DNA of 64,000 nucleotides, taken from positions 656-64,655 of the forward strand of contig DASXTW010000085.1 of assembly GCA_036505215.1 (NCBI GenBank), read 5' to 3'. The notes beneath the pieces were generated by a model, which was not told the DNA's origin, ran no database searches, and worked only from the letters and a program-made list of their open reading frames with translations. A program made the translations under genes and the position numbers. Source of the stretch: Actinomycetota bacterium (GTDB lineage Bacteria; Actinomycetota; UBA4738). This document shows, one piece after another, positions 28,273 through 59,226 of the stretch. Within the stretch, counting starts at the first letter, position 1. Each line of letters starts with the position of its first letter.

Positions 28273-28733
28273 AGCTCGACCTCCTTTCGGATGATGTCGT
28301 ACACGGCCTCCGGCGAGCCAGCCTCGCGGAGCGCACTTCGGAATCCCTCGTGGATCAAGCGGCGGGCCAGGCGCGAGAGGACCCGGACGTGCAGGTCGTC
28401 GGCACCTTCAGGGGCGGCGATCAGGAAGATCAGGTCGGCAGTGCTGCCGTCCTCCGCCCCGAAATCCACCCCCGCCTCGCTGTGCCCGAACGCAACCGAC
28501 GGACGGACCACGGCGGGAGACTTGGCGTGAGGAATGGCGATCCCGGACTCCATCCCGGTCCCGCCGGTCTCCTCTTCCCGCGCCCAAACGGCGTCCACGT
28601 ACGTCGGGACGTCTCTCACGCGCCCGTCCGCTTCGAGGAGCTTGGCGAGCTCCTCGATCGCGGCCCGTCGCTCTGTGGCCGCGAGACTCACCGACACGAG
28701 TGATGGGTTCGTCAGCTCCTCGATGGTCGTCAT
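28269..28733 (-). CDS. PTS fructose/mannitol-type EIIA component
   Basis: 154 aa with the EIIA type-2 active His region (GIAIPHAKS). 4-nt overlaps on both sides. Confidence 0.85.
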   Translation of the reverse strand: MTTIEELTNPSLVSVSLAATERRAAIEELAKLLEADGRVRDVPTYVDAVWAREEETGGTGMESGIAIPHAKSPAVVRPSVAFGHSEAGVDFGAEDGSTADLIFLIAAPEGADDLHVRVLSRLARRLIHEGFRSALREAGSPEAVYDIIRKEVEL

Positions 28734-29680: not shown

Positions 29681-29801
29681 GACAGCACCACCTCCACCCC
29701 AACACCTCGAAGCCTACGCCGATCGGCCGGTGACAAGGGCGCGCCTTTCACCAGCGGGTCGACCTCTTCGATGGCATCACTTGTGCCGCTGAGCGTCCCG
29801 A

Positions 29802-30560: not shown

Positions 30561-30970
30561 GCCACCTCCGAGTCTGCCCGGTTAGTTCCGAGTCCGTGGG
30601 ATTCTGCCCGATTGCCCGCCTCGTTGTCAAGGCCCAGACAGAAACAAAAGTCGAAGCCCCCCTCGACGGACGAGGCCAGGCCCCGAGACGACGGGACAGG
30701 CCCGGGGCAAAGGCTCAGAGGAACCGGCCGTCGTTCGACTGTAGCTGGACGTTTGAAACCAAGCCGAACTGGGTACCCGCCTCGCACCTTATCGGTGGGG
30801 GACATGTGCGGGTTCGGGGAGTTGCGACCCCTGGTTCAGGGACGATCGGCGATCGAGAGGGGGCTCCAAACGGCGGGCGTTCCCCGCTCGGAGTCGTCGG
30901 TGATTTCCGTGCGGACCCGACGGCTCAGGCCCGTGGCGTCGCGCATCTTTCGTCTGAAGCGCTCGCCACG

Positions 30971-32674: not shown

Positions 32675-32731
32675 CCGCTCCACGCAACGGCGCGCTGTCC
32701 GTATGGAGGTTCGGGAACGAAGGGGGGACCG

Positions 32732-37819: not shown

Positions 37820-37822
37820 CCG

Positions 37823-38974
37823 ATGGCGACCATCCTGCTGGTCGATGATCGAGCCGAGAATCTGCGCGCGCTCGAGGCCGTGCTCGAACCTCTCGGACAC
37901 ACCCTGCTCAGGGCGCAGTCTGCCGACGAGGCGCTCGCGTGCCTCCTGAGGGAGGAGGTCGCTCTCATCCTCCTCGACGTGATGATGCCGGGGCTCGACG
38001 GATTCGAGACAGCAGAGCTCATCAAGCAGAGAGAGAGAACCCGCGACATCCCGATCATTTTCCTGACGGCCATCAACCAGGCCATCGAACATCACCTCAG
38101 GGGATACGAAGTGGGCGCAGTGGATTACATCAACAAGCCATTCGACGCCCACATCCTCCGCTCGAAGGTATCCGTGTTCCTCGATCTCAACGAGAAGCGC
38201 GACCTGTTGCGGGCGCAGACCGAAGAGCTCCGGAAACGGCTGAACGAGCGGGACCGAGCGCAGCGCGCGCTGGTGCGCCGGACCGCCGAGCTGGCGCGAT
38301 CCAACAGGGAGCTCGACCAGTTGGTTCAGATCGCCTCTCACGACATCCGTGAGCCACTTGACACCATGGCGGGATTCCTCGAGATCATCGCTCAGGAATC
38401 CGCCCGTTCGGCCGGGGACGATGTCCGGCTCCTGCTCACCCGGGCAATCGCCCAGGTCGAGCGCATGCGCGACGCGATCGACAAACTGGTCGGGTCGGCG
38501 AGCTCTGGCCAGGGGCTCGAAGCGAGCGAGGTCGTGGCTTTCGACAAGGTCCTCGACCAGGCGCTCGACGATCTCGAGAGCCCATTGGCGGAGAACGGCG
38601 CGCGCGTCGTCCGATCGCCACTCCCAGCCGTACGCGGAGACTTCTGGCAGCTCGTCGAGTTGGTCGAGGTCCTGATCGAACACGCCCTCAAGCTTCGAGG
38701 GGACGAAGCTCCCGAAGTGCGAATCCACGCGAGTGAAGGCTCGACGGAGCATCTGATCTCGATCGGCAACAACGGGGTTGCGATCGACCCGCGTGATGCC
38801 GCTCGGCGCTTCACCGTGTTCGCCACGATGGGCTCCCCGTCCGGTGGGATCCTCGACGTCGGTCTGGTCACGTGCCGCAGGATCATCGAGCGGCACGGTG
38901 GGCGAATCTGGCTCGAATCTCAGCCGGGAAGCGGATCCACGGTCTTCTTCACGCTTCCCCCAGCCGAGCACTGA
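37823..38974 (+). CDS. Hybrid REC-histidine kinase (receiver, HisKA, HATPase)
   Basis: REC motifs (ILLVDD ... ILLDVMMPGLDG), H-box (SHDIREPL) and an ATPase C-terminus. Starts 4 nt after the poly-HAMP kinase stop. Confidence 0.85.
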   Translation: MATILLVDDRAENLRALEAVLEPLGHTLLRAQSADEALACLLREEVALILLDVMMPGLDGFETAELIKQRERTRDIPIIFLTAINQAIEHHLRGYEVGAVDYINKPFDAHILRSKVSVFLDLNEKRDLLRAQTEELRKRLNERDRAQRALVRRTAELARSNRELDQLVQIASHDIREPLDTMAGFLEIIAQESARSAGDDVRLLLTRAIAQVERMRDAIDKLVGSASSGQGLEASEVVAFDKVLDQALDDLESPLAENGARVVRSPLPAVRGDFWQLVELVEVLIEHALKLRGDEAPEVRIHASEGSTEHLISIGNNGVAIDPRDAARRFTVFATMGSPSGGILDVGLVTCRRIIERHGGRIWLESQPGSGSTVFFTLPPAEH

Positions 38975-39771: not shown

Positions 39772-40959
39772 ATGGCCCAGCTCAAAGCCAGTGAACGGGC
39801 GAGCCTCCCCGACAGCGCCTTCGCCTACGTCGACTCTCGAGGCCGGCGACGGCTGCCGATCCACGACGAGTCTCACGTGCGGAACGCGCTCGCTCGGTTC
39901 AATCAGGTCTCCTTCGAAGATGATGCGGCCCGGGAGCGCGCCCGCAAGCGGCTGCTGAACGCCGCGAAAAGGTACGGGATCGTGCCCGTGGGGTTCATCG
40001 ACGGGCAGCTCCGATCGGAGCGCAGGCACGCAGCGGCCGGCCGCCTGGTGATCGAGCTCGGTCGGATGGGCGCACCCGGCGAGCTCGAGCAGCAACTGCG
40101 AAGCGCGCTGCGGGATCCCACCCTTGCCGTTCTGCACTGGTCGGAAGCGGCCGGGTCGTACCTGGACGGCGCGGGCAAGCCGGTCCCGCTGCCTGCTGAT
40201 CAGGAGCAGCGGGTGGTGACCTATCTCGAGCGCCAGGGCCGGCCGATGACCGCGATCGTGCACGATCCGGCCGTCCTCGACGATCCGGATCTCACCGAGA
40301 CCGTGCTTGCCGCTGTGCGCTTCGTCATCGAGAAAGACCGGCTCCACGGCCAGGTCCAGGCCCGATCGACCAATGCCGCGACGCTCCCCACCGGCTTCGT
40401 CACCTTCCTGTTGACCGACATCGAGGGCTCCACGGCTCTTCTCAGGCAGCTGGGCGACCGCTACGCGGGCCTGCTGAACGACGTCCGCAGGATCGTTCGG
40501 CAGGCCGTGCTGCGGGCCGGAGGCCGCGCGGTCGATGCCCACGCCGACGAGTTCTTCGCGGTCTTCGAGCGCGTGGTCCCTGCCATCGAGGCGGCCATCT
40601 CCATCCAGCGCACGATGAGCGAGCGGACCTGGCCCGACGATCTGCAATGCCGGGTCCGTGCCGGAATCCACAGCGGCAGTCCCACCCTGACCGACACCGG
40701 GTACATCGGCCTGCCCGTCCACACGGCAGCTCGGGTCTGCTGGGCGGCCCACGGCGGCCAGATCGTCGTCTCCGGCGAGACCAAAAGAGCGGTCGAGGGA
40801 TCCGTGCCGGCCGGCGTCCGCTTCCGAAGCCTCGGCCGACATCGCTTCCCCGGGCTGACTCAGCCGGAAGCGCTCTTCCAGGTCGAGGCCGACGGACTCC
40901 TCGCCGACTTCCCGCCTCTACGGATGGGAGCCGCCTCCTCCACCGAGCCACGCCGTTAG
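39772..40959 (+). CDS. Class III adenylate/guanylate cyclase with an N-terminal domain of unknown function
   Basis: C-terminal cyclase catalytic motifs (FVTFLLTDIEGSTAL, GIHSGSPT, HTAARV). Confidence 0.8.
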   Translation: MAQLKASERASLPDSAFAYVDSRGRRRLPIHDESHVRNALARFNQVSFEDDAARERARKRLLNAAKRYGIVPVGFIDGQLRSERRHAAAGRLVIELGRMGAPGELEQQLRSALRDPTLAVLHWSEAAGSYLDGAGKPVPLPADQEQRVVTYLERQGRPMTAIVHDPAVLDDPDLTETVLAAVRFVIEKDRLHGQVQARSTNAATLPTGFVTFLLTDIEGSTALLRQLGDRYAGLLNDVRRIVRQAVLRAGGRAVDAHADEFFAVFERVVPAIEAAISIQRTMSERTWPDDLQCRVRAGIHSGSPTLTDTGYIGLPVHTAARVCWAAHGGQIVVSGETKRAVEGSVPAGVRFRSLGRHRFPGLTQPEALFQVEADGLLADFPPLRMGAASSTEPRR

Positions 40960-41821: not shown

Positions 41822-41895
<74 letters not shown>

Positions 41896-46405: not shown

Positions 46406-48610
46406 ATGGAGCTGCGACGAACCGACCTTCCCTCCACTGAGTCGCCCGCCGAGCGGCAGGCGCCGGTAGAGGGGATCCCTCCTCTTCTTGCGGACTTCGC
46501 CGGCAAGGTCCTGGCGATCAAAGAAGGGGAAACGTTCCTCTACTCCGACGTCGCCGGCAACCTGGACGATCGCCGCGAGTACGGGCACGGGTTCTACCAC
46601 CGGGACACCCGCTTCCTGTCTCATTTCCGCATGAAGGTCTCCGGCCGGGATCCGATCCTGCTGTCTTCCTCTTCGGAACGCGCGTACATGTCCTACGTGG
46701 ACTTGACCAACCCCGAGCTGTTCATCGATGGCGATCCGGCGGTCCCACAGCAGACACTGAACATCCGGCGAGTCCGAGCCATCTACGGCCGCCTTTTCGA
46801 GCGCATCCGAATCAAGAACTACAACCCACACGCGGTCGAGACGTCGATGACGTTCTCGCTCGCCGCCGACTTCGCGGACATCTTCCAGGTGAGGGGCTTC
46901 CGCACCGATGGCGGGGGACACCTCGAGCCGCCTCGGGTGGCTGGCTCGAGCGCGGAGTTCAGCCACCAGGGGATCGACGACGTCACCCGGAAGACCGTGA
47001 TCGCGTTCACTCCGGAGCCGGACAGGCTGGAGGTGGTGGGAGACCAGATCGTGGCGGAGTTCACACTCAGGCTGGCCCCCCACCAGACCAGGCTGATCTC
47101 CATGACCGTGGACCCGGTGATCGGTGAGGTCAGGCCACTGAGCGTCGAATTCGACTCGGCTGTGCATCAACTTCGCCGCTCCTATGAGGACTGGGAGCGG
47201 GAGTGCACACAGATCACCACCGACAACGAGGTGTTCAACAGCCTCCTTGTCCGCGGCTTGAGGGACCTCCGGGCTCTGTACACGAGTACGGACCAGGGCG
47301 GGATCATCGCGGCGGGCATCCCGTGGTATGTGGCGGTGTTCGGCCGGGACGCCTTGATCAGCTCGCATCAGCTACTGACCGTGAATCCCAAGCCTGCCCG
47401 GGATGCCTTGCGGCTGTTGGCCAGGCACCAGGGGAAGAAAGTCGATCCATGGCGCGACGAAGAACCGGGGAAGATTCTGCACGAGATCAGGCGGGGGGAG
47501 CTTGCCGGCGCGGGGGCCATCCCGCATAACCCCTATTACGGCTCGGTCGACGCCACGCCCCTGTTCGTCTTCCTCTATGCACAGTGTTTCCGGTGGACCG
47601 GGGACGTCGAGTTCGCTCGGGAGTTGCTGCCCAACGTCCGGGCCGCTCTGGAGTGGATCGACGACTACGGCGACCAGGACGGCGACGGATTCGTCGAGTA
47701 CAGGACCCAGTCACCTCGGGGAGTGCCCAACCAGGGCTGGAAGGACTCCTTCGACTCGGTGGTCCACGCCGATGGACGGTTGGCCCCCGCGCCCATCGCG
47801 CTGGTCGAGGTCCAGGGATACGTGTACATGGCCAAGCAGCGGGTGGCCGACGTGTTCGACGCCCTGGGGGACTATCGATCGGCGGTTCGGTTGCGGGAGG
47901 AGGCGGCCGAGCTGAAGCTCCGGTTCAACGACGCCTTCTGGATGGAGGACGAGCAGTTCTTCGCCATGGCCCTGGATGCAGAGAAACGGCAGGTTCGCAC
48001 GGTCGTTTCGAACCCGGGGCACTGCCTGTATGCGGACATCGTCGCCCCCGACAAGGCCGCCCAGGTGGCCCGCAGGCTGTTGCAGCCCGACATGTTCAGC
48101 GGATGGGGCATCCGCACTATGAGCAAGGGCGCGCTCGCCTACAACCCGATGAGTTACCACAACGGCTCCGTGTGGCCGCACGACAACGCCTTCATCGCCG
48201 CTGGGTTGAAGCGCTATGGCAACGTCAAGGCCACCAATCGGGTGGCCACGGCCATGTTCGACGCCTCCATCCACGCCGATTACATGCGCCTTCCCGAGCT
48301 CTTCTGTGGGTTTACCCGGCGAACCCCAAACCAGCCCGTGGGCTATCCCGTGGCCTGCTCGCCCCAGGCGTGGGCTGCGGGAGCGCCGCTGCTGATGCTT
48401 CAGGCGATCCTGGGAGTGTCTGCCAAGGCCCACGAGAACATGCTGACGGTCAACCAGCCCCACCTGCCGGTCTGGCTCAACGTTGTGGAACTGCGCAACC
48501 TGCGGGTCGGGAGCAGCACCATCTCATTGGTTTTTCGCCGGGAGGGCGAGATCACCGGCTTCTCTCTCCTCGATCGCAAGGGGGACGTCCGGGTCCTCAT
48601 GGAGGAGTGA
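46406..48610 (+). CDS. Amylo-alpha-1,6-glucosidase / glycogen debranching enzyme N-terminal domain family protein (archaeal-type GDE)
   Basis: 734 aa. N-terminal GDE_N-like region (FLYSDVAGN ... GFYHRDTRFLS) and C-terminal (alpha/alpha)6 glucosidase region (GIPWYVAVFGRD, SVWPHDNA). Confidence 0.8.
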   Translation: MELRRTDLPSTESPAERQAPVEGIPPLLADFAGKVLAIKEGETFLYSDVAGNLDDRREYGHGFYHRDTRFLSHFRMKVSGRDPILLSSSSERAYMSYVDLTNPELFIDGDPAVPQQTLNIRRVRAIYGRLFERIRIKNYNPHAVETSMTFSLAADFADIFQVRGFRTDGGGHLEPPRVAGSSAEFSHQGIDDVTRKTVIAFTPEPDRLEVVGDQIVAEFTLRLAPHQTRLISMTVDPVIGEVRPLSVEFDSAVHQLRRSYEDWERECTQITTDNEVFNSLLVRGLRDLRALYTSTDQGGIIAAGIPWYVAVFGRDALISSHQLLTVNPKPARDALRLLARHQGKKVDPWRDEEPGKILHEIRRGELAGAGAIPHNPYYGSVDATPLFVFLYAQCFRWTGDVEFARELLPNVRAALEWIDDYGDQDGDGFVEYRTQSPRGVPNQGWKDSFDSVVHADGRLAPAPIALVEVQGYVYMAKQRVADVFDALGDYRSAVRLREEAAELKLRFNDAFWMEDEQFFAMALDAEKRQVRTVVSNPGHCLYADIVAPDKAAQVARRLLQPDMFSGWGIRTMSKGALAYNPMSYHNGSVWPHDNAFIAAGLKRYGNVKATNRVATAMFDASIHADYMRLPELFCGFTRRTPNQPVGYPVACSPQAWAAGAPLLMLQAILGVSAKAHENMLTVNQPHLPVWLNVVELRNLRVGSSTISLVFRREGEITGFSLLDRKGDVRVLMEE

Positions 48611-48704
48611 GCTTAGGAAATTGGGCCTTTCGGTAGCCGAAATAAGGCCGAAAGTCCCTAATCCCCCGGCCTCCGAATGTCGATATGCGCTTCAAAGGAG
48701 GCCT

Positions 48705-50486
48705 ATGCGAGAGCATGCGCGCATCCTCCGGGCCATTCTGGGGATGCGGAGAGAAAACGGGTTCACGGTGCTCGAAACCGTCGTGGCGCTGGGGGTCATC
48801 CTCGCCGCAATGCTGACTCTCGCGTACACGGCGAACGTCGGCTTCTCCGACGCCGCCTACGCGCGTCAGCGCCAAACGGCCTCCGGGCTCGCCAACGAGA
48901 CGCTCGAACAGATCCGAGCCCTTCCCTTCGACACCTTGAAGCAGGGGTTGAGCAACTTCGACAGCCTCGGCAGTGACCCCAACATCCAAGTGGTTGGGCC
49001 CGACTATTTCTTCACGGGGGTCACCCCGAACGAGAAGATCGCCCGCGGGGACATCCCGCTCGCCCCACCCGTGGTGCCGCTGGTTCCCCACATCCAGAAC
49101 ACGAACGTGGGGACCGCCGCGACGTACAAGATCAGCTCGTACGTGACCTATTTCAACAACGTGCAAACCGCGAATACCTATAGGGTCTCGGTGATCGTCA
49201 CCTGGACGAACACTGCCCGGAAGGGCATCGCCAAGGTACAGGCGCAGAGCATCTTCTTCTCCGGCTCCGGGTGCCTGTCCACCTCCACGCACCCATTCGC
49301 CGCTCCGTGCCAACCCTTCCTCTTCGCCAATGCCTCGGGCGACGAAGGGGACATCTCGTTCACGGGGAACGTGGACGACCTCGCCATCGATGGGGCCCAC
49401 CTGCGGCTCGGAGGCGTGACCTCGAACATGCAGATCGAGCAGATCTCCGCCGTCCAGGGCACGACGGAGACGTCCGGGGTGAGCCTCGCCGTCAACGGGC
49501 AGGCCGAGACTGACACCGGTAATCAGGGCGTCACCTCGGGGGCCGACAACGACCCGGCCCCTCCCAACTCGGAGTTCAGCTCGACGTCAACGCCCGCGCA
49601 GGGAAGCAACACCCTGACAGGGACCGCCGGCGGCGGGAGCTTCTTCTCTGTGACCTCGAGCGCCGGCGACACGGGAACCACGACCAGCACGAGTTCGGCC
49701 TCGGTCAGTCCGCCGAACCCCTGCAGTGACTCGGTGGGGACGCCCCAAACGGACTCTCTGCCGTGCGGCGCGTCCAAGGCGAAGCAGGGGGGCACCGAAT
49801 CCGCCTTTGCTTTTCTCCGGCGTTCGGGCCGGGACCTCGGCACGACCTCGTTCGCCTCGGTAGACGCCTCTCCAGAGGATCTGTACGCCTTCACCAACCG
49901 AGCCGGCGCTCCCGAGTTCTCCTACTGCCCGGCCACGTCCGGTGAAGGTTGCGTCCACGCCGACGTCACCAGGACGTGGGGCGCCGTCTCGTTAGGAGGT
50001 CTTCCGGACATCTTCGCCGGCGCCTCGTTGCCGCCGGGATGGACCGGATATCTGCTGACGGGGTCGAACCTGAAGACGACCGCCTCCGCGGAGGCCGGCG
50101 TGGGCTCGGCGGCTCCGAGCGTCAAAGTCCAGGGCACCGTTTCGTACTACAACGGGCTGGGTTACACGCCACTCCCGCTGGTGGTCGGAGCGCCCGTGCC
50201 GATCCCCATTCCGCCAGTGCACGCCGAGCAGCTCGTGGGCGGCAAGCTCTTCGCGGTCGACGTCACCGCCAGCTTGACGACCGGGGGAACGCAGATCCTC
50301 GATCCGGCCGGATGCGCGCCGCCCTGCGTCCACAACGATGCGTCCGCCGTCGCCGAATCGCCCATCGTTGGCCAGATCACCTACGTGTTCTCGTACGAAG
50401 GGTCGACCTTCGTCAGCCTGACCATGAAGGTGAACCTCGGCGTGGTCCGCGCCAAGGGTACCTACAAGCCCGCCCCCAGTGGATAA
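48705..50486 (+). CDS. Large type IV pilin-like protein (593 aa) with a prepilin-type N-terminal cleavage/methylation signal
   Basis: Class III signal (RRENG|FTVLETVVALGVILAAMLTL) with Gly at -1 and Glu at +5. Ser/Thr/Gly-rich C-terminal domain. Strong RBS (AAAGGAGG) upstream of the ATG at 48705; an alternative ATG lies at 48741. Confidence 0.65.
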   Translation: MREHARILRAILGMRRENGFTVLETVVALGVILAAMLTLAYTANVGFSDAAYARQRQTASGLANETLEQIRALPFDTLKQGLSNFDSLGSDPNIQVVGPDYFFTGVTPNEKIARGDIPLAPPVVPLVPHIQNTNVGTAATYKISSYVTYFNNVQTANTYRVSVIVTWTNTARKGIAKVQAQSIFFSGSGCLSTSTHPFAAPCQPFLFANASGDEGDISFTGNVDDLAIDGAHLRLGGVTSNMQIEQISAVQGTTETSGVSLAVNGQAETDTGNQGVTSGADNDPAPPNSEFSSTSTPAQGSNTLTGTAGGGSFFSVTSSAGDTGTTTSTSSASVSPPNPCSDSVGTPQTDSLPCGASKAKQGGTESAFAFLRRSGRDLGTTSFASVDASPEDLYAFTNRAGAPEFSYCPATSGEGCVHADVTRTWGAVSLGGLPDIFAGASLPPGWTGYLLTGSNLKTTASAEAGVGSAAPSVKVQGTVSYYNGLGYTPLPLVVGAPVPIPIPPVHAEQLVGGKLFAVDVTASLTTGGTQILDPAGCAPPCVHNDASAVAESPIVGQITYVFSYEGSTFVSLTMKVNLGVVRAKGTYKPAPSG

Positions 50487-51138
50487 GCTGCTCAGGCTCC
50501 GCCGGCTCCGGTCCGAAGAGGGCATGACCCTCGTGGAGCTGACCGTGAGCATGTCGATGATGGCCGTCGTGGCGGTCATTTTCCTGACCGCGCTCGCCTC
50601 GGTGCAGCGCGGAGTCGAGCGTCAGACGGATCGCACGACGACCAACGACCAGGTGAGGCTGGCCATCGATCAGCTCGACCACGAGATCCGGTCGGGCAAC
50701 CTCCTGTACGACCCTCAGAACGAGGCTGACCCGGATCCCAGCCACGAGGTGGTGCCCTACATGTCGCTTCGCATCTACACGCAGGCGAACGCCGACATCC
50801 GGAACCCGGGCAACCAGTGCGTGCAGTGGCGGATCACCGACATTGGCGAGCTACAGAGCAGGCGCTGGGCGACCAACTGGCGGGATGACCCCCCGAACTT
50901 GGTCACGAACTTCAGAATCGTGGCCGAGAACGTGGTGAACCGGGATCCGACCGTCAACGTGCGGGCCTTCACGCTCGATCCCGATCCCGCCAAGGGAGGC
51001 CGGACGATCGTGGTGAGCCTGGTGGTGAACAGCAACTCGAAGTCTGGTCAGAACGTGACGATCCGGCAGTCGGTGACCGGCCGGAACACCGAGTACGGAT
51101 ATCCCAGCAACGTGTGCGCGGACATCCCGCCGTACTGA
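50479..51138 (+). CDS. Type IV pilin-like / pseudopilin protein (219 aa)
   Basis: Prepilin-type signal (SEEG|MTLVELTVSMSMMAVVAVIFL). Overlaps the upstream gene by 8 nt. Confidence 0.65.
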   Translation: MDKLLRLRRLRSEEGMTLVELTVSMSMMAVVAVIFLTALASVQRGVERQTDRTTTNDQVRLAIDQLDHEIRSGNLLYDPQNEADPDPSHEVVPYMSLRIYTQANADIRNPGNQCVQWRITDIGELQSRRWATNWRDDPPNLVTNFRIVAENVVNRDPTVNVRAFTLDPDPAKGGRTIVVSLVVNSNSKSGQNVTIRQSVTGRNTEYGYPSNVCADIPPY

Positions 51139-51149
51139 AAGGGACTGCA

Positions 51150-52547
51150 ATGATGAGATTTCGTCGGGAAGAGGGGTTCGCGATGATCACGGCGATCCTG
51201 GTGTCGCTCGTGGTGCTGTCGCTGAGCTTGGTGGTCATCAACTTGGCCGTCCACAACTCCTCCCAGAGCGCGTTCGACCGGGACCGCGTGATGGCCATCC
51301 ACGCGGCCGAAGCCGGCTTGGACAACTACCTGTCCGGTCTGACCAAGCTCGATCCTGTGAACCCCGTGCCGCCGTGCAACGCCAGCCTGGATGTCGGCGC
51401 CAGTCCGGTCGAGCACTACGACGTGAGCGTGCTGCTCTTCGACACGTGGCCCCCCACCGGGCCGGGCGCATGCCCGCTGCCCGTCGGTCAGGAGGCAGCC
51501 GGTGCTCTGGTGACCGCCAAGGGCACGGCGCTCTCCGCCGCCCCGGCTGTATCCAGGAAGATGGAGACGGCCGTCCGCCTGACCCCCGTCTTCGGGGGGC
51601 TAAACCAGGCCATCTTCTCCAATGACCAGCTGAACTTCCAGAACAAGCTGGAGGTAAACGGCAACGTCGGGAACGACGGCGACGTGTACACGAACGGCGA
51701 CTTCGCCCTGGGTAACAACACCGTCATCTCCGGAACCGTCTACGCGCAGGGCTACGCGAAGATCGGCCAGGGCGTGGTCAAGGCCAATGTGTGGGCCAAC
51801 AACTACGTCGACCTGAGCGGCGGTATCTCGGTGCTCGGGAACGTCACATCCTCGACGTCGTACATCACGCTGGCCAATGCGCACGTCTACGGGGAGGCCA
51901 AGGCCGGCACTACCATCACGGTCCCAGGCAACTCGCAGATCGACGGGTCCAGGACGCCGAACTCGCCGTCTGGGCCCCCGCCCCAGATCCCCCTTCCCCA
52001 GGTCCCGTACGTCCAGTCCGAATGGATAAAGGCCGGCTACACGATCGTGAACTACTCGAGCTGCGCCCTGGCCAAGACGTTCATCAACAGCGCGCCAGTA
52101 GGGAACTACGTCGTACGGATCACCCCGACCTGCGCACTTTCTTGGGGCAACAACTCCACGATCAACCTCAAGGGGAACATGGCCATCATCACCGATGGGT
52201 CGTTCACCACCGTCAACCAGACGAGCTGGAACGGCGTGGGCAGCAAGTACACCCTTTTCATCATCCGGCCCTACCAGGCAGGCCTGCCGTGCAACCCGAC
52301 CCCGTCTCCCTACGACATCAACGTGTCGAACAACACCTCGTTCAACAACCTCCAGGTGTTCGTGTACTCGCAGTGCACAATCAACTTCGGCAACAACAAC
52401 GCGTCCGGGTTCGACGGGCAGATCATCGGTGGCCAGGTCAACATCACGAACCAGATGGTGGTGAACTTCAAGCCCATCACGGTGCCCGGGTTCAACAAGA
52501 TCGGATACCGGAGCGACGTCTCCTACCTCCGGGAGGTCCCGTCCTGA
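51150..52547 (+). CDS. PilX-N-like minor pilin-like protein (465 aa), Asn/Thr-rich
   Basis: N-terminus (RREEG|FAMITAILVSLVVLSLSLVV) matches a prepilin/PilX_N type signal. The RBS (GAAAGGGA) precedes ATGATG. Confidence 0.6.
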   Translation: MMRFRREEGFAMITAILVSLVVLSLSLVVINLAVHNSSQSAFDRDRVMAIHAAEAGLDNYLSGLTKLDPVNPVPPCNASLDVGASPVEHYDVSVLLFDTWPPTGPGACPLPVGQEAAGALVTAKGTALSAAPAVSRKMETAVRLTPVFGGLNQAIFSNDQLNFQNKLEVNGNVGNDGDVYTNGDFALGNNTVISGTVYAQGYAKIGQGVVKANVWANNYVDLSGGISVLGNVTSSTSYITLANAHVYGEAKAGTTITVPGNSQIDGSRTPNSPSGPPPQIPLPQVPYVQSEWIKAGYTIVNYSSCALAKTFINSAPVGNYVVRITPTCALSWGNNSTINLKGNMAIITDGSFTTVNQTSWNGVGSKYTLFIIRPYQAGLPCNPTPSPYDINVSNNTSFNNLQVFVYSQCTINFGNNNASGFDGQIIGGQVNITNQMVVNFKPITVPGFNKIGYRSDVSYLREVPS

Positions 52548-53812: not shown

Positions 53813-54613
53813 GTGGTCACGATCGCCCACATCTCCGATCCCCACGTCGGCTCGCCGTACTTCGTGCCGAACCTGATGAACCGCGTGATCGTCGAGCTCA
53901 ATGAGCTGGAGCCCGACGTCGTGGTCTGCACGGGCGATCTCACCAACGAGGGCTACCGGCAGGAGTACAAGAACTGGGTGGCCTACCAGGAGCGGATCAG
54001 GGCACCGATCGCCACCATCCCTGGGAATCACGATGCGCGAAACGTGGGCTATCTCCACTTCGAGGAGCTGATCGGCCCCCGGCACTGGGTCCACGATGTG
54101 CGTGGGGTACGCATCGTCGGGGTGGATTCGAGCGAGCCGGATCTGAACGAAGGGCAGATCGGCCGGGAACGGTACCCGTGGATCAAGGAGCAGTTCACCC
54201 CTGCCTCCGAGCTGAAGGTCTTCGCCCTCCATCATCACCTGATCCCCGTTCCGGGTACCGGCCGTGAGCGGAGCACTGTGGCCGACGCAGGCGATCTCCT
54301 GGAGGTCCTGATCGAGTCCGGGGTGAACATTGTCCTCTCAGGACACAAACACGTGCCCTACGTGTGGCGGCTGGAGACCTTCTACATCGTGAACGCGGGA
54401 ACCTGCTCGTCCCTGCGCCTACGGGGCTACACCAAGCCGTGCTACAACATCGTCGAGGTGGAGGGGGACGAGGTGAAGATCTTCCGGAAGTTCCCCTTCG
54501 GCGGGCAGACGGTGCTGGCGCACTTCTCCCTTTCGAGCGGGGCGCAGTATCACCGGCAGCTGGAGGCGCTCGTGCAGGACGCTCGCACGAACGTCAGTCT
54601 GGCCTCCGAATAA
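53813..54613 (+). CDS. Metallophosphoesterase (calcineurin-like)
   Basis: Metallophosphatase motifs (DPH, GDLTNEG, GNHD, HHH, GHKH). Confidence 0.85.
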   Translation: MVTIAHISDPHVGSPYFVPNLMNRVIVELNELEPDVVVCTGDLTNEGYRQEYKNWVAYQERIRAPIATIPGNHDARNVGYLHFEELIGPRHWVHDVRGVRIVGVDSSEPDLNEGQIGRERYPWIKEQFTPASELKVFALHHHLIPVPGTGRERSTVADAGDLLEVLIESGVNIVLSGHKHVPYVWRLETFYIVNAGTCSSLRLRGYTKPCYNIVEVEGDEVKIFRKFPFGGQTVLAHFSLSSGAQYHRQLEALVQDARTNVSLASE

Positions 54614-54654: not shown

Positions 54655-56010
54655 ATGAAGGTCATCGCTCTGGTCGACGGCGAGCACTACCCCTCGGTCA
54701 CGCGCTGGGGGTTGGATTCGGCGCGACAGGCCGGCCTCGAAGTCATACTCGCGCTCCTCGTCGGAGGCATCGAGAAGCTGGGGGCCGACCGGGGCCTGGA
54801 TCTCGGATCCGTGCCGGTCGTGCGGGGCGAGGCTGATCCCCGGGCAGCCCTCTCCGCGGCGATCAGGGAGCACTCACCCGAAGCGGTGCTGGACCTCTCG
54901 GACGAGCCGGTCCTGGGCTACGAGCACAGGATGGAGCTCGCCGCGGTGGCCCTGTCCATGGGCGTTCCTTACCTTGGCCCCGATTTCCGGTTCGACCCGC
55001 CGATCGTCGAGGCGCCCCTGCCCGTGCCCACCCTCGGGGTCATCGGAGCGGGCAAGCGCGTGGCCAAGACCGCCATAGCCGGGCATGCCGCCCGGCTGGC
55101 CGTGGGGGCGGGCCTTCGCCCGGCCGTCGTAGCAATGGGGAGGGGAGGGCCCGTGGCGCCGGTCACCGCAGGGGCTGCCGACGTCACTCTGGATGCGCTG
55201 CTCGCCACGGCGGAGCGAGGCGAGCACGCCGCCTCGGACTACCTGGAGGACGCGCTCATGTCAGGCGTCCCCACCGTGGGTGCGAGACGCTGTGGGGGAG
55301 GGCTCGCAGGGAAGCCCTTCGTCACCAACGTGGCCGAAGCCGCGCAGCAGGCGGCCGGCTCGGGAGCCGACCTGGTCATCTTGGAGGGGAGCGGCGCCTC
55401 CGTCCCGACCGTTCCATGGGACGCAGGGATCCTGGTGGCCCCGGCGACGACTCCGTTGGAACACCTCGGCGGGTACTTCGGGCCTCTGCGGATATTGCTA
55501 TCGGACCTTTTGGTCTTTATCATGGATGGTGGCTCGTCCGCCGAGCCCGACAACCTTTCGTCTCTCTATCCCTTAGTTCGTCGGCTTCACGCAGATATCC
55601 GGGTAGCCATAGCGGAGCTTCAACCGGTGGCGCTGGCCGACGTGAGAGGCAAGGATGCGTTCTTCGCAACGACCGCACACCGAGAACTGGCGGGTCATCT
55701 CGCCGATCGACTCGAGCGCACCTCAGGGTGCCGGGTGGTGAAGGTGTCCCCACATCTTGCCGACCGAGCAGCCCTGGAGGCGGACCTCGCCGAGGCGCCG
55801 CCTTTCGATGTCCTGCTCACCGAGCTGAAAGCGGCGGCGATCGACGTGGCGGCCCGGCGCGCCTTGGACCGCGGAGCCGAAGTGGTGTTCGTGGACAACC
55901 GCCCCCGGACGGCGGGTGGAGACGGAGAGATCGACGAGCTCCTCACGGAAACGATCCTCCTGGCTGGGGAGCGGGGGCGGGAGCGGACTCAAAGCGCGGA
56001 GCCTGAATGA
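54655..56010 (+). CDS. Putative cyclic 2,3-diphosphoglycerate synthetase
   Basis: 451 aa. The N-terminus (KVIALVDGEHYP) and the P-loop-like GVIGAGKRVAKT resemble the archaeal cDPGS family. Assignment rests on recall of the family plus its pairing with a 2PGK-like gene; no HMM was run. Confidence 0.5.
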   Translation: MKVIALVDGEHYPSVTRWGLDSARQAGLEVILALLVGGIEKLGADRGLDLGSVPVVRGEADPRAALSAAIREHSPEAVLDLSDEPVLGYEHRMELAAVALSMGVPYLGPDFRFDPPIVEAPLPVPTLGVIGAGKRVAKTAIAGHAARLAVGAGLRPAVVAMGRGGPVAPVTAGAADVTLDALLATAERGEHAASDYLEDALMSGVPTVGARRCGGGLAGKPFVTNVAEAAQQAAGSGADLVILEGSGASVPTVPWDAGILVAPATTPLEHLGGYFGPLRILLSDLLVFIMDGGSSAEPDNLSSLYPLVRRLHADIRVAIAELQPVALADVRGKDAFFATTAHRELAGHLADRLERTSGCRVVKVSPHLADRAALEADLAEAPPFDVLLTELKAAAIDVAARRALDRGAEVVFVDNRPRTAGGDGEIDELLTETILLAGERGRERTQSAEPE

Positions 56011-56987
56011 CCGACAAGAAGATCATCGTCATCTCGGGAGTGGATCCCGGCCTGCCCTATTCCAAGGGCTTGCGGGCGAGCGAGCTCATGGTCACCGGTC
56101 TCTCTCCCTATCGTGCCTACCAGGTGGCCGAGCAGGTTGAGCATCGGCTGCTCGAGCGCGAAGTGGCCACTGTCACCACCGAGGAACTGGACGACCTGAC
56201 GATCGACGTGCTCTCGGACCTGGCGGGGGAGCGCTACGCGACGAACTGGCTGAAGTGGAGAGAGATCACCGCCCTGGATTCACCCCTGGTCATCATGATC
56301 GGCGGGGCAACGGGGGTGGGGAAGTCGACCATAGCCACCCAGCTTGCCGTGCGCCTGGGGATCGTCCGCGTGGTGGCCACCGATGCCATCCGGGAGGTCA
56401 TGCGCGCGCTTTTCACCAGCGAGCTGATGCCAACCCTGTACACCTCGTCGTTCGAGGCCGACTCGGCGCTCCGGGAGCCCCCGCCCCGGCCCCTGGACCG
56501 GGTGATCGTCGGATTTCGGGAGCAGACGGCGGCGGTGGCGGTGGGCATCCGTGCCCTGGTGGAGCGGGCGGCCGTGGAGGGAACCAGCATCGTGATCGAG
56601 GGGGCCCATGTGGTTCCTGGATTTTTCGATCTGGAGGCCTACGAGGGAAGAGTTCTGGCGGTCCCGGTTGTTGTTACTGTTGACGACGAGGATTTGCACC
56701 GCAGCCACTTCGCGGTCCGCTCGACAGACGCCTCCTCCCGGCCATTCGAGCGATACGCCCAAGGTTTCCCGAACATCCGAAGGGTGCAGAAATACATCAA
56801 GAGCCAGGCGCTCAGCCACAACGTGCCCATGATCCCGAACTACAGCCTGGATCAGGCCCTGTCCGCGATCATCGACCTGGTGGTGGAGCGAGCCACCGAC
56901 TACATACGGAACCGGCAGCAACGCGATGGGTCCAAACGCCGGCATCCGTCCAGAGAAGCGACCCGACTGGAGGCAAGCAAGAGATGA
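56007..56987 (+). CDS. Putative 2-phosphoglycerate kinase (P-loop kinase)
   Basis: Walker A (GGATGVGKST), a size of 326 aa and a 4-nt overlap with the upstream putative cDPGS gene fit the archaeal cpgS-2pgk arrangement. Confidence 0.55.
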   Translation: MTDKKIIVISGVDPGLPYSKGLRASELMVTGLSPYRAYQVAEQVEHRLLEREVATVTTEELDDLTIDVLSDLAGERYATNWLKWREITALDSPLVIMIGGATGVGKSTIATQLAVRLGIVRVVATDAIREVMRALFTSELMPTLYTSSFEADSALREPPPRPLDRVIVGFREQTAAVAVGIRALVERAAVEGTSIVIEGAHVVPGFFDLEAYEGRVLAVPVVVTVDDEDLHRSHFAVRSTDASSRPFERYAQGFPNIRRVQKYIKSQALSHNVPMIPNYSLDQALSAIIDLVVERATDYIRNRQQRDGSKRRHPSREATRLEASKR

Positions 56988-57646
56988 AGCTGTTCCTCGA
57001 TACCGCCAACCTCGAGGAGATCCGCGAGATCAAGAAGTGGGGGGTGCTCGGCGGTTGCACCACCAACCCCAGCCTGCTGGCCAAGGAAAAGGCCGACTGG
57101 GAAGTGCAGATGAAGGAGGTCTGCGCCGAGGTCGACGGGCCCGTATCCCTCGAGACAACCCACGAAAAGGCCGATGAGATCTATGAAGAGGGCCTGAAGC
57201 TCGCCGCGGTCGCTCCCAACGCTGTGGTCAAGGTGGCCATGACCTCCGACGGACTGGAGGCAGGGAAGCGGCTGGTGGACGAGGGGATCCCCGTCAACGT
57301 GACGCTCACCTTCTCCCCGGCCCAGGCCATCCTGGCCGGCGAGATCGGGGCCACCTACGTGTCGCCCTTCCTGGGACGGCTGGATGACATCGGATCTGAC
57401 GGAATGAACGTGCTGCGTGACATCTGCGAGATCTACGACGTCCAGGGGTATGACACCCTCGTCCTGGCCGCGTCCCTCCGCCATCCGATGCACGTGGTGG
57501 AGGCGGCCCGGCTGGGGGCGGACGTGGCCACGATGCCGTTCGACGTCTTCTCGAAGCTGGTGAAGCACCCCCTCACGGATACGGGGCTGGACAAATTCCT
57601 CTCTGACTGGAAGCAGCTCCAGAGGGATCTCAAGGAAGGAGCATGA
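56984..57646 (+). CDS. Fructose-6-phosphate aldolase / short-type transaldolase
   Basis: 220 aa with a typical Tal/FSA N-terminus ([13 protein letters not shown]...TTNPSL) and the Schiff-base Lys region (VKV). Confidence 0.9.
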
Positions 57647-59226
57647 CGGTGGATTCGCGCACGATCGAACGGGCGGACCTGGAGGGTAAGGTCCTCCCCG
57701 AACTCCAACAGATCGCCGAAGGACTCGGCGTCGAAGGTCATCAGCGCTTGCGCAAGAGTGACCTGATCGATGCCATCGTGGCGAAATCATCCACCGACGG
57801 GCACGGTACGGCAGCGGCAGAGCCCGACACCGAGAACGCCGCGGCCGAGCCCGAGGCAGGATCTCCCGAAGGCAGGGGTGACGGGTCGCGCTCGCGAGAA
57901 AGAGGCTCCTCGAATTCGTCCGAGGGGGAGCGCGGCGCTGCGACGGCCGTGGCCGAAAGGGCGGCGGATGCTGGCCAGACGGTCACCGAGGAGCGTCCGC
58001 CCGCGGGCGAGCGCAGGGACCGCCGTCCCTCGCGAGAGGAGCGCCGCCGGGAGAGGGAGCGCCGTCGCGAGCGGGAACGGGAGGAACGCGAGGAGGAGCT
58101 GGCAACCGCTCCGACGCGGACGGGCATCCTGGATGTCCTCCCCGAGGGCTACGGGTTCCTGCGGACAAGCGGTTATCTGCCGGGCAACGAGGACATCTAC
58201 GTGTCGCTCTCGCAGATCAGGCGGTTCGGACTGCGCCGGGGGGACCAGATCACCGGCAAGGTCCGGCAGCCCCGGGACAACGAGAAATACCCCGCGTTGC
58301 TGCAGATCGAGACCGTGGCGGGAGTCGATCCGGAGATTGCTCGGCAACGGCCGGACTTCGACAAGCTGACTCCGCTGTTCCCCGACGAGCGATACCGCTT
58401 GGAGCATGACCCCAAATGGATCACCGAGCGGATCATCGACCTGATCGCGCCGATCGGGAAGGGCCAGCGGGGCATGGTGGTTTCGCCGCCGAAGGCCGGG
58501 AAGACCACCGTCCTCAAGCAGATCGCCGGCGGCATCCTTGCCGCCGACCCCGAGTCGCACGTGATCGTGCTGCTCGTGGACGAGCGGCCGGAGGAGGTCA
58601 CCGACTGGCAGCGGACGGTGGAGGCGGCGGAGGTCGTGTACTCCACCTTCGACAAGCCCGCCGATCAGCACACCCAGGTCACCGAGCTGGTCCTCGAGCG
58701 CTCGAAGCGGCTGGTGGAGCAAGGGATGAACGTGGTGATCCTGCTGGACTCGATCACCCGTCTTGCCCGCGCGTACAACCTGGCTGCGCCCGCGTCGGGG
58801 AGGATCCTCTCCGGTGGTGTCGACTCGACGGCGCTGTACCCGCCGAAGCGGTTCTTCGGGGCTGCCCGGAACCTGGAGGAGGGCGGGTCGCTCACGATCA
58901 TCGCCAGCGCCCTGGTGGAGACGGGATCCCGGATGGACGAGGTCATCTTCGAGGAGTTCAAGGGCACGGGGAACTGGGAGATCCGCCTGGACCGCAACCT
59001 GTCCGAGAAGCGAATCTTCCCGGCCCTGAACATCGAAGCCTCCGGCACCCGCAAGGAGGAGCGCCTCATGCCCACGGAGGAGCTGGCCCTGGTGTGGCGT
59101 CTCCGTCGGGTCCTGCACGCGCTGGAGCCGGCGGCGGCATTGGAGCTGCTGATCGACAAGATCCGGGTGACCAAGTCGAACGAGCAGTTCCTCCGGGAGA
59201 TCGCCAAGGCCCCCGTCAGCGAGTAA
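57643..59226 (+). CDS. rho: Transcription termination factor Rho, with an RD/RE-rich N-terminal insertion
   Basis: N-terminal domain, RNA-binding OB fold, P-loop (GKTTVL) and the conserved C-terminus. The low-complexity [11 protein letters not shown] insertion is typical of actinobacterial Rho. Confidence 0.95.

What the first reader, a model, noticed from the sequence alone, without database searches (positions are those of the whole stretch)
54655..56987. Archaeal-type cyclic 2,3-diphosphoglycerate synthetase plus 2-phosphoglycerate kinase gene pair in a bacterium
The two translationally coupled genes (4-nt overlap) resemble the cpgS / 2pgk pair. That pair makes the thermoprotective solute cyclic 2,3-diphosphoglycerate in hyperthermophilic methanogens: 2-PG to 2,3-BPG to cDPG. 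The second gene has a clean P-loop (GGATGVGKST). The first has the KVIALVDGEHYP N-terminus and a GAGKRVAKT loop. If the assignment is right, this is a compatible-solute pathway rarely reported in bacteria. It sits next to a transaldolase, inside a block that interrupts conserved core synteny. That placement is consistent with acquisition by a thermophilic actinobacterium.
Basis: inference. Interest (0 to 1): 0.75.

Follow-up and report, generated by a model that had tools for sequence, protein, structure and literature searches.

The report
Bacterial cyclic-diphosphoglycerate synthesis gene module
An uncultured soil-type actinobacterium carries intact, coupled genes for the two enzymes that make cyclic 2,3-diphosphoglycerate, a solute the literature assigns only to heat-loving methanogens, but the genes are an old, inherited and already database-annotated feature of many bacteria, not a recent gain by a thermophile.

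Summary
ORFs 54655-56010 (451 aa) and 56007-56987 (326 aa) exist, overlap by ATGA, and carry the quoted motifs.

The 451-aa protein is a full-length homologue of crystallised Methanothermus fervidus cDPGS (E 1e-89, 39% identity; AF2 model TM 0.92 to 8ORU). It keeps 10 of 11 ligand or catalytic residues I could map. The Walker-A glycine before the lysine is Ala. The 326-aa protein matches the 2-phosphoglycerate kinase model over its full length (E 2e-87), but below the curated cut-off.

The evolutionary reading fails:
- The order thrB-(MPE)-cDPGS-2PGK-FSA-rho recurs in about 70 Actinomycetota loci, down to 41% cDPGS identity.
- GC content is unremarkable, and dN/dS is 0.04-0.14.
- Relatives appear to come mainly from temperate soils, judged from record names.
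- Homologous pairs also occur in cultured Streptomyces, Solirubrobacterales, Cloacimonadota and Thermococcus.

NCBI and IMG already name both proteins, yet the papers I read still say cDPG occurs only in hyperthermophilic methanogens, and I found none discussing bacterial homologues.

One lead is new. A distinctive metallophosphoesterase co-localises with the pair in two phyla, in different gene orders. It is a candidate cDPG hydrolase.

Verdict: a new member of a known kind, of moderate interest, and testable in culturable Streptomyces.

The parts
53813..54613 (+). Metallophosphoesterase (266 aa), 41 nt upstream of cDPGS. Candidate third partner of the module (cDPG hydrolase or 2,3-BPG phosphatase; inferred).
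   Evidence: Pfam Metallophos E 1e-20. Best solved relatives are Rv0805/Icc (5e-13) and GpdQ. All metal-ligand motifs are intact, and there is an invariant subfamily motif HHHxxPxPxxGRER...AGD (aa 140-161). It lies directly upstream of cDPGS in 10/14, 30/31 and 13/30 loci by identity band. Orthologues (35-36% identity, E about 1e-46) lie downstream of cDPGS-2PGK in Cloacimonadota-type loci L107, L094 and L082. dN/dS is 0.035.
54655..56010 (+). Cyclic 2,3-diphosphoglycerate synthetase homologue (451 aa).
   Evidence: phmmer against PDB 8ORK/8ORU gives E 1e-89 over aa 2-437, and against 9SXB E 1.6e-84. Precomputed Pfam PF27272 CpgS_N. AF2 pLDDT 92.8 and Foldseek TM 0.92 with rmsd 2.2 A to 8ORU; the next best hit, LpxK, has TM 0.4.
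54676..54687 (+). N-terminal DGEH motif (aa 8-11), invariant across the family.
   Evidence: Invariant columns D8 G9 E10 H11 in the 20-sequence alignment A1 and in the 77-sequence table.
54763..54777 (+). GGIEK (aa 37-41). E40 and K41 correspond to M. fervidus E45 and K46, which contact 2,3-DPG from the partner subunit.
   Evidence: Residue mapping; residue roles from PMC10690619, section 8.
55045..55071 (+). Walker A / P-loop GAGKRVAKT (aa 131-139). K134, R135, K138 and T139 are conserved. Ala137 replaces the family's near-invariant Gly (M. fervidus G148).
   Evidence: Among the 120 closest relatives this position is A in 85, G in 24 and S in 10.
55225..55239 (+). HAASD (aa 191-195). D195 corresponds to the M. 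fervidus Mg ligand D208.
55822..55839 (+). ELKAAA (aa 390-395). E390 and K392 correspond to M. fervidus E404 and K406 (ATP contact and charge shielding).
56007..56987 (+). 2-phosphoglycerate kinase homologue (326 aa): an ATP-cone-like N-terminus plus a P-loop kinase. Its start overlaps the cDPGS stop (ATGA, 56007-56010).
   Evidence: NCBIfam NF003259 E 2.2e-87, 293 bits (cut-off 343), covering aa 6-306 of the protein and 5-302 of 306 model positions. ATP-cone scores 23.1 bits against a cut-off of 25.8. Relatives are named 2-phosphoglycerate kinase. It is 37% identical to the kinase coupled to Thermococcus cDPGS and 43% to the Streptomyces one.
56301..56330 (+). Walker A GGATGVGKST of the kinase (aa 99-108).
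   Evidence: P-loop kinase Pfam matches start at aa 95-96.
56984..57646 (+). TalC/FSA-type transaldolase/fructose-6-phosphate aldolase (220 aa), joined by ATGA overlaps to the kinase (56984-56987) and to rho (57643-57646).
   Evidence: TIGR00875 269 bits against cut-off 246; PF00923 E 3e-54. It follows 2PGK in 14/14, 26/26 and 14/25 loci by identity band. It is absent from the Streptomyces, Cloacimonadota and Thermococcus arrangements.
57643..59226 (+). Transcription terminator Rho, the downstream anchor of the conserved block.
   Evidence: tblastn synteny; ORF.

Best explanation
The two genes encode a functional 2-phosphoglycerate kinase (2-PG + ATP -> 2,3-bisphosphoglycerate) and a cyclic 2,3-diphosphoglycerate synthetase (2,3-BPG + ATP -> cDPG + ADP + Pi). 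They are translated as a coupled pair and divert the glycolytic intermediate 2-PG into cDPG.

The pair belongs to an ancient, vertically inherited module, (metallophosphoesterase)-cDPGS-2PGK-(transaldolase/FSA). In a broad set of mostly uncultured, apparently soil-dwelling Actinomycetota this module sits between thrB and rho. It is not a recent island and is not tied to thermophily.

Shown here: homology, fold, conservation of active-site residues, coupling, synteny and purifying selection.

Inferred: that the product really is cDPG. Also inferred: that in these bacteria it serves as an anionic solute and/or a mobilisable phosphate and carbon reserve (the role discussed for Methanothermobacter), and that the adjacent metallophosphoesterase reopens or dephosphorylates it.
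For: Sequence and fold:
- cDPGS homology is full length, E 1e-89 and 39% identity to the M. fervidus enzyme, and E 1.6e-84 to the Thermococcales-type structure 9SXB.
- The AF2 model has pLDDT 92.8 and TM 0.92 to ligand-bound 8ORU.
- The residues that PMC10690619 assigns to 2,3-DPG, Mg and ATP binding (E45, K46, K145, R146, K149, T150, D208, T353, E404, K406) are all conserved.
- The kinase is a full-length match to the NF003259 2PGK model, E 2e-87.

Coupling:
- The ATGA overlap is confirmed.
- 2PGK lies next to cDPGS in 15/15, 31/31 and 23/29 bacterial loci by identity band.
- The two genes are also 4-nt-overlapped in Streptomyces sp. WAC 01529 and Thermococcus paralvinellae, and separated by 1 nt in a Cloacimonadota MAG.
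- Identities of the two proteins fall together across lineages.

Selection and synteny:
- dN/dS against L001 is 0.14 for cDPGS, 0.11 for 2PGK, 0.035 for the MPE and 0.07 for FSA.
- The order thrC-thrB-...-MPE-cDPGS-2PGK-FSA-rho-rpmE-prfA is kept down to 41-48% cDPGS identity.
- GC is 0.675 here against 0.64-0.70 across the window.

Metallophosphoesterase link:
- Orthologues accompany the pair in Solirubrobacterales (53% identity, upstream) and in Cloacimonadota and soda-lake loci (35-36% identity, downstream, as a tandem fusion).

Precedent for the proposed role: the carbon, phosphate and osmotic roles of cDPG and a cDPG hydrolase activity in Methanothermobacter are described in PMC1224877.
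Against: - No bacterial member of either family has been assayed, and the papers I read say cDPG has been found only in hyperthermophilic methanogens.
- The glycine before the Walker-A lysine is Ala137 here. It is near-invariant across the family at large but varies among G, A and S in this clade. In other P-loop proteins this substitution can weaken nucleotide binding (my own knowledge).
- The M. fervidus adenosine contact E305 is Gly292 here.
- The kinase scores below NCBIfam's equivalog cut-off (293 against 343). The same superfamily includes kinases of other specificity, for example mevalonate-3-phosphate 5-kinase.
- The metallophosphoesterase is absent from some close relatives (L007, L012, L014), from the Acidimicrobiales loci, from Streptomyces and from Thermococcus. 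It is therefore not obligatory, and within Actinomycetota its adjacency could simply be inherited gene order.
Confidence: 0.7

Rival explanations
1. First reader's scenario. The pair is an archaeal thermoprotectant pathway recently acquired by a thermophilic actinobacterium as part of an inserted block, and it makes cDPG for heat protection.
For: The module does lie between thrB and rho, which are adjacent in many Actinobacteria (my own knowledge; gene order). The window's IVYWREL fraction of 0.428 gives about 66 C by the Zeldovich formula. Judged from its name, one relative (L016, KatS3mg013) is a hot-spring MAG. The characterised enzymes come from hyperthermophiles.
Against: The same placement and order recur in about 70 loci down to 41% cDPGS identity, with neighbours diverging in parallel. 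There is no GC deviation. The same IVYWREL value (0.42-0.45 on orthologues) is found in relatives whose names point to temperate soil, so it is a lineage trait. Homologous pairs occur in mesophilic Streptomyces. Mesophilic Methanobacterium and Methanobrevibacter also carry cDPGS. The only window-specific insertion nearby is the pilin-like block at 48.5-52.5 kb, shared only with L001, and it does not include the pair.
Confidence: 0.07
2. The bacterial enzymes have diverged in specificity or role. For example, the kinase might supply 2,3-BPG as an end product or regulator, or the synthetase might cyclise or activate a different bis-phosphorylated acid. In that case cDPG is not the physiological product.
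For: Identity to the characterised enzyme is only 39%. There are Walker-A G->A and E305->G changes. The kinase is below the equivalog cut-off and belongs to a functionally mixed kinase superfamily. The NJ tree is star-like with long branches, so orthology to the assayed enzymes is not resolved. cDPG has not been reported from bacteria in the papers I read.
Against: Every residue reported to contact 2,3-DPG or Mg is conserved, including the trans-subunit E/K pair. The whole-chain fold superposes on the substrate-bound form at TM 0.92. The kinase-synthetase coupling is retained in four bacterial lineages and in Thermococcus, as expected for consecutive steps.
Confidence: 0.2
3. The genes are decaying relics or mis-called ORFs with no function.
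For: In three MAGs whose names suggest long-read assemblies (L019-L021) the cDPGS match is split across frames.
Against: dN/dS is 0.11-0.14 at unsaturated dS of about 0.6-0.7. The ORFs are intact in all other loci, and all motifs are retained. The splits in L019-L021 are as likely to be assembly indels as real frameshifts.
Confidence: 0.02

Closest known systems
Cyclic 2,3-diphosphoglycerate synthetase of Methanothermus fervidus (PDB 8ORK/8ORU; PMC10690619) and the Thermococcales-type enzyme (PDB 9SXB)
   Same: Same length class, the same two-domain architecture (CpgS_N plus an LpxK-like P-loop domain), TM 0.92, and the same 2,3-DPG, Mg and ATP-phosphate residues.
   Different: 39% identity. 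The host is bacterial and, judging from the habitats of its relatives, probably mesophilic. Ala replaces the Walker-A Gly before the Lys, and Gly replaces E305. The gene is fused into an operon with 2PGK, whereas in Methanothermobacter cpgS stands apart from any 2PGK.
2-phosphoglycerate kinase family (NCBIfam NF003259/PRK04220; COG2074)
   Same: Full-length match with a canonical P-loop and an ATP-cone-like N-terminus. It is 37% identical to the kinase coupled to cDPGS in Thermococcus.
   Different: It scores below the equivalog cut-off (293 against 343). No solved structure exists for comparison. It is translationally coupled on both sides, to cDPGS and to the transaldolase.
Class III cyclic-nucleotide phosphodiesterase-like metallophosphoesterases (Rv0805/Icc, GpdQ)
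   Same: The neighbouring 266-aa protein shares the fold-defining metal-binding motifs and is most similar to these among solved structures (E 5e-13 to 1e-9).
   Different: It belongs to a separate subfamily with an invariant HHHxxPxPxxGRER...AGD motif and conserved basic residues. It is genomically tied to cDPGS-2PGK in two phyla. Its substrate is unknown.
cDPG hydrolase activity of Methanothermobacter thermautotrophicus (Sastry et al. 1992, as summarised in PMC1224877)
   Same: It is the reaction the module would need to remobilise cDPG, and a plausible job for the adjacent phosphoesterase.
   Different: That activity is described as membrane-bound. The window protein has no obvious hydrophobic N-terminus, judged by eye from the sequence. 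No metallophosphoesterase lies within 6 kb of cpgS in the Methanobacteriales loci examined.

Membership tests
cDPGS (CpgS) family | Full-length sequence homology to a biochemically characterised cDPGS | tested here: met
   E 1e-89, aa 2-437 against residues 6-452 of M. fervidus 8ORK, 170/436 identical.
cDPGS (CpgS) family | Two-domain fold: unique N-terminal domain plus LpxK-like P-loop C-terminal domain | tested here: met
   AF2 pLDDT 92.8. Foldseek TM 0.92 and rmsd 2.2 A to 8ORU over the whole chain; LpxK reaches only TM 0.4. Precomputed PF27272 CpgS_N. The local Pfam and NCBIfam copies have no model that hits it.
cDPGS (CpgS) family | P-loop residues K145, R146, K149 and T150 that bind 2,3-DPG, ATP and Mg | tested here: met
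   K134, R135, K138 and T139.
cDPGS (CpgS) family | Glycine immediately before the Walker-A lysine (M. fervidus G148; at least 90% conserved in the family) | tested here: not met
   Ala137. The clade varies at this position: A 85, G 24, S 10 among the 120 closest. The effect on function is unknown.
cDPGS (CpgS) family | Mg ligand D208; trans-subunit substrate contacts E45 and K46; E404, K406 and T353 | tested here: met
   D195, E40, K41, E390, K392 and T340.
cDPGS (CpgS) family | Adenosine/ribose contact E305 | tested here: not met
   Gly292. This position varies widely in the family.
cDPGS (CpgS) family | Catalysis of 2,3-BPG + ATP -> cDPG + ADP + Pi | not testable with these tools
   Needs an enzyme assay or 31P-NMR.
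2-phosphoglycerate kinase (NF003259) | Score at or above the curated equivalog cut-off | tested here: not met
   293.3 bits against a cut-off of 343, although the match is full length (5-302 of 306) at E 2.2e-87. This supports family membership but not certified equivalence.
2-phosphoglycerate kinase (NF003259) | P-loop kinase core with a Walker A motif | tested here: met
   GGATGVGKST at aa 99-108; AAA_18 and AAA_33 matches.
2-phosphoglycerate kinase (NF003259) | N-terminal ATP-cone domain | tested here: inconclusive
   PF03477 scores 23.1 bits against a cut-off of 25.8 over aa 31-87. Orthologues in L094 and L110 pass.
2-phosphoglycerate kinase (NF003259) | Pathway context: encoded with cDPGS | tested here: met
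   ATGA overlap. Adjacent in 69 of 75 non-Methanobacteriales loci with enough downstream flank.
2-phosphoglycerate kinase (NF003259) | Catalysis of 2-PG + ATP -> 2,3-BPG | not testable with these tools
   Needs an assay.
Recently acquired genomic island | Compositional deviation from the flanks | tested here: not met
   GC is 0.675 at 54-56 kb against 0.64-0.70 elsewhere. GC3 is 0.79-0.86, like the neighbours.
Recently acquired genomic island | Patchy presence among close relatives, or a variable insertion site | tested here: not met
   Same site and order in all 16 closest genome loci and about 55 metagenome loci.
Calcineurin-like metallophosphoesterase | Metal-binding motifs DxH, GD, GNHD/E, H, GHxH | tested here: met
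   D9/H11, G41-D42, G71-N72-H73-D74, H140-142 and G177-H178-x-H180, invariant in 15 orthologues.
Calcineurin-like metallophosphoesterase | Activity on cDPG or 2,3-BPG (the proposed role) | not testable with these tools
   Supported only by gene-neighbourhood inference.

The most novel reading that the evidence does not exclude
cDPG is not confined to methanogens. Soil Actinomycetota (including culturable Streptomyces) and Cloacimonadota make it as a stress solute and/or phosphate-carbon reserve. The conserved HHHxxPxPxxGRER-type metallophosphoesterase encoded beside the pair is the cDPG hydrolase (or 2,3-BPG phosphatase), for which, to my knowledge, no gene has been assigned. Together the three genes would form a synthesis-mobilisation cycle.
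Probability: 0.3. Interest if true: 0.7.

Novelty: new member of a known kind. Interest (0 to 1): 0.5.

Why it matters
cDPG is treated in the literature, and by the groups trying to produce it commercially, as an extremolyte unique to hyperthermophilic methanogens. An intact, selected, operon-coupled pathway in abundant soil Actinomycetota and in cultivable Streptomyces would have three consequences:
- It would move cDPG from 'archaeal heat adaptation' to a wider stress or phosphate-storage role.
- It would offer mesophilic, genetically tractable hosts and enzymes for production.
- It would give a concrete gene candidate for cDPG breakdown.

The claim is easy to test, by 31P-NMR of a Streptomyces strain and two recombinant enzymes.

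Tried and rejected
1. Local Pfam-A and NCBIfam scans of the 451-aa protein returned nothing. This reflects library age, since PF27272 is newer, and is not evidence against homology.
2. The IVYWREL growth-temperature estimate gave about 66 C. I rejected it because orthologues from relatives whose names point to temperate soil give the same fraction.
3. Promoter and terminator consensus scans gave counts no different from shuffles, with no site at a gene boundary of the module.
4. Rfam found only a tRNA-Arg, and no riboswitch or leader near the module.
5. The NJ tree of 77 family members is star-like. It defines the window clade but cannot give the direction of any archaea-bacteria transfer.
6. 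Loci L019-L021 have frame-split cDPGS matches and were left out of the alignments.
7. Literature searches for bacterial cDPGS or 2PGK, or for a link between cDPG and metallophosphoesterases, found nothing specific. One 2005 paper notes COG2074 in Thermus and Deinococcus.
8. The paper's contact 'P335' did not map: residue 335 is Phe in the deposited sequence. I did not use it.
9. I did not model the metallophosphoesterase. Only window or the search for homologous proteins sequences may be submitted, and a single-sequence model would not identify a substrate.
Full report
**Observation**

The window contains, on the + strand, a 451-aa ORF (54655-56010) and a 326-aa ORF (56007-56987). The stop of the first overlaps the start of the second in ATGA. 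Identical ATGA overlaps join the second ORF to a 220-aa ORF (56984-57646), and that ORF to rho (57643-59226). A 266-aa metallophosphoesterase (MPE, 53813-54613) ends 41 nt upstream. A MarP-family protease lies divergently before it.

**Identity of the 451-aa protein**

The local Pfam and NCBIfam copies have no model that hits it. [quoted passage not shown]
- M. fervidus 8ORK/8ORU: E 1e-89, aa 2-437, 170/436 identical.
- 9SXB, named cDPGS: E 1.6e-84. This entry proved to be a Thermococcales-type enzyme.

An AlphaFold2 model built on a 20-sequence alignment has mean pLDDT 92.8. It superposes on substrate-bound 8ORU at TM 0.92 and rmsd 2.2 A. The next fold, LpxK, reaches only TM 0.4, which is the relationship the crystallographers described.

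I mapped the residues that PMC10690619 assigns to catalysis.
- Conserved: E45/K46 (trans-subunit 2,3-DPG contacts), K145/R146/K149/T150 (P-loop), D208 (Mg), and T353, E404 and K406. In the window protein these are E40, K41, K134, R135, K138, T139, D195, T340, E390 and K392.
- First deviation: E305 is Gly292, at a position that varies widely in the family.
- Second deviation: the glycine before the Walker-A lysine is Ala137. That glycine is at least 90% conserved across family representatives. Among the 120 closest relatives, however, it is A in 85, G in 24 and S in 10, so the clade tolerates small residues there.

**Identity of the 326-aa protein**

It matches the NCBIfam 2-phosphoglycerate kinase (2PGK) model NF003259 over its full length (5-302 of 306 positions). 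The match has E 2.2e-87 and 293 bits, which is below the curated equivalog cut-off of 343. It has a canonical P-loop and a sub-threshold ATP-cone N-terminus. No solved structure exists for comparison. Its close relatives are named 2-phosphoglycerate kinase by NCBI and IMG.

**Is it already known?**

The exact 451-aa sequence is in NCBI as 'MAG TPA: 2,3-diphosphoglycerate synthetase [Actinomycetota bacterium]'. More than 7,900 proteins score E<=1e-10. An exhaustive scan of 1.84 billion cluster representatives finds 930 clusters at E<=1e-3 and 203 at E<=1e-30.

Named representatives include cultured Streptomyces species, Solirubrobacterales, Acidimicrobiia, Cloacimonadota, Thermococcus and Methanobacteriales, the last including mesophilic Methanobacterium and Methanobrevibacter.

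By contrast, the papers I could search describe cDPG as found exclusively in hyperthermophilic methanogens. I found none that discusses bacterial homologues of cDPGS. A 2005 comparative-genomics paper only notes COG2074 in Thermus and Deinococcus.

**Genomic context and inheritance**

The window order is argS, GNAT, thrC, thrB, a GDE/MGH1-like glycoside hydrolase, a pilin-like block, MarP(-), MPE, cDPGS, 2PGK, FSA, rho, rpmE, DUF1385, DivIVA-like, prfA, prmC.

That placement is itself conserved:
- In 21 species-level genome loci, all Actinomycetota MAGs, L001-L016 keep MarP | (MPE) | cDPGS | 2PGK | FSA | rho | rpmE at 56-85% cDPGS identity.
- In 80 metagenome loci the same order persists down to 41-48% cDPGS identity. 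One example is L066: thrC-thrB-MPE-cDPGS-2PGK-FSA-rho-rpmE-DUF1385-prfA.

| cDPGS identity to window | 2PGK adjacent | MPE directly upstream | FSA downstream |
|---|---|---|---|
| >=65% | 15/15 | 10/14 | 14/14 |
| 50-65% | 31/31 | 30/31 | 26/26 |
| <50%, not Methanobacteriales | 23/29 | 13/30 | 14/25 |
| Methanobacteriales | 0/9 | 0/8 | 0/8 |

(All counts.)

GC content is unremarkable. dN/dS against the closest relative, at dS of about 0.6-0.7, is 0.035 for the MPE, 0.14 for cDPGS, 0.11 for 2PGK and 0.07 for FSA. The only lineage-specific insertion nearby is the pilin-like block at 48.5-52.5 kb, shared only with L001. This is vertical inheritance of an old module, not a recent island.

**Thermophily**

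The window's IVYWREL fraction (0.428) would predict about 66 C. Orthologues give the same value in relatives whose record names indicate temperate soils, namely the Angelo meadow, Microflora Danica and soil-MAG-catalogue series. That reading of the names rests on my own knowledge. The index therefore reflects lineage composition. I have no evidence that the host is a thermophile.

**Independent arrangements**

- Streptomyces sp. WAC 01529 carries cDPGS (47% identity) overlapped by 4 nt with a 2PGK homologue (43%), with neither MPE nor FSA nearby.
- Thermococcus paralvinellae has the same 4-nt-coupled pair, next to a mannosylglycerate-synthase-type glycosyltransferase.
- Methanothermobacter has cpgS on its own.
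- A Solirubrobacterales MAG has folP-MPE(53%)-cDPGS(39%)-2PGK(46%)-rho.
- A Cloacimonadota MAG has a 5'-nucleotidase-type MPE, then cDPGS, 2PGK, a CBS protein, and a 499-aa tandem MPE whose first half is 35% identical (E 2e-46) to the window MPE.
- Two soda-lake loci at 45% GC show the same layout, cDPGS-2PGK followed by the tandem MPE.

The best solved relatives of this MPE score only 5e-13 (Rv0805/Icc). The 35-53% identity across phyla therefore marks a specific subfamily. Fifteen orthologues share all the metal ligands, an invariant HHHxxPxPxxGRER...AGD motif and five invariant basic residues.

**Mechanism proposed**

[quoted passage not shown] It then closes the ring with release of Pi, as proposed for the archaeal enzyme. 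Translational coupling would keep the two steps stoichiometric.

I infer, and have not shown, that the product is cDPG. I also infer that in these bacteria it acts as an anionic solute and/or a phosphate-carbon reserve. That role is debated for Methanothermobacter, where a cDPG hydrolase activity is known.

The MPE is a plausible hydrolase or phosphatase that returns carbon to glycolysis. The supporting evidence is its recurrence with the pair in two phyla in different gene orders. The evidence against is its absence from the Streptomyces, Acidimicrobiales, Thermococcus and Methanobacteriales contexts examined, and from three close relatives.

**Verdict**

The enzyme assignment is supported, with the caveats above. 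The 'recent acquisition by a thermophile' reading is not supported. The pair is a new, and already database-annotated, bacterial member of two known families.

Its interest lies in three points:
- The contradiction with the literature's 'methanogen-only' view of cDPG.
- The existence of cultivable carriers.
- The MPE lead.

Interest is 0.5.

Noticed in passing
window 53813-54613; L107 7733-9232; L094 8327-9844; L109 4148-4945: A distinct metallophosphoesterase subfamily (invariant HHHxxPxPxxGRER...AGD motif) accompanies cDPGS-2PGK in Actinomycetota, where it lies upstream, and in Cloacimonadota and soda-lake loci, where it lies downstream. In the latter it is a tandem fusion whose second half has lost the DxH, GD and GNHD motifs.
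   Followed up: partly
window 46406-48610 (+); L110 3467-4609: A 734-aa GDE_N_bis / MGH1-like (mannosylglycerate-hydrolase-like) glycoside hydrolase lies between thrB and MarP. It is conserved there in many relatives. In Thermococcus the cDPGS-2PGK pair lies next to a mannosylglycerate-synthase-type glycosyltransferase. There may be a wider clustering of genes for glycerate-derived solutes.
   Followed up: partly
window 48483-52547 (+): Three ORFs (667, 219 and 477 aa) have prepilin-like hydrophobic N-termini and essentially no Pfam hits, apart from one weak Bactofilin match. The block is shared only with the closest relative, L001, so it is a recent lineage-specific insertion between the glycoside hydrolase and MarP.
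   Followed up: partly
window 57643-57646: rho starts with an ATGA overlap on the stop of the transaldolase/FSA gene. The essential terminator gene is therefore translationally chained to cDPGS-2PGK-FSA by three consecutive 4-nt overlaps.
   Followed up: no
window 55045-55071: The residue before the Walker-A lysine of cDPGS varies among Ala (85), Gly (24) and Ser (10) in the 120 closest relatives. It is near-invariant Gly in the rest of the family.
   Followed up: partly
L019, L020, L021 (cDPGS region, about 5150-7700): In three MAGs whose names suggest long-read assemblies, the cDPGS match is split over two or more frames while the neighbours look intact. These could be assembly indels or real pseudogenes.
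   Followed up: no
window 24738-30560 (-): A complete fructose-type PTS operon: DeoR regulator, PfkB-family kinase, IIA, IIB(C), HPr and enzyme I.
   Followed up: partly
window 15720-18611 (+), 20464-23370 (-), 34460-38974 (+), 39772-40959 (+): A dense cluster of large signalling proteins: GGDEF-GAF-HD-GYP (963 aa); PAS/GAF-SpoIIE phosphatase (968 aa) next to a STAS-like ORF (the STAS reading is by eye only); a HAMP-GAF hybrid histidine kinase (1119 aa) with a second response-regulator kinase; and a DUF6582-adenylate/guanylate cyclase.
   Followed up: no
window 41822-41895 (-): A single tRNA-Arg (CCG) just upstream of argS. It is the only Rfam or ARAGORN hit in the 64 kb.
   Followed up: no
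window 30836-33193 (-): A 785-aa ORF chosen by the GC3 filter has no Pfam hit and comparatively low GC3 (0.73). It may be a mis-call or a novel protein.
   Followed up: no
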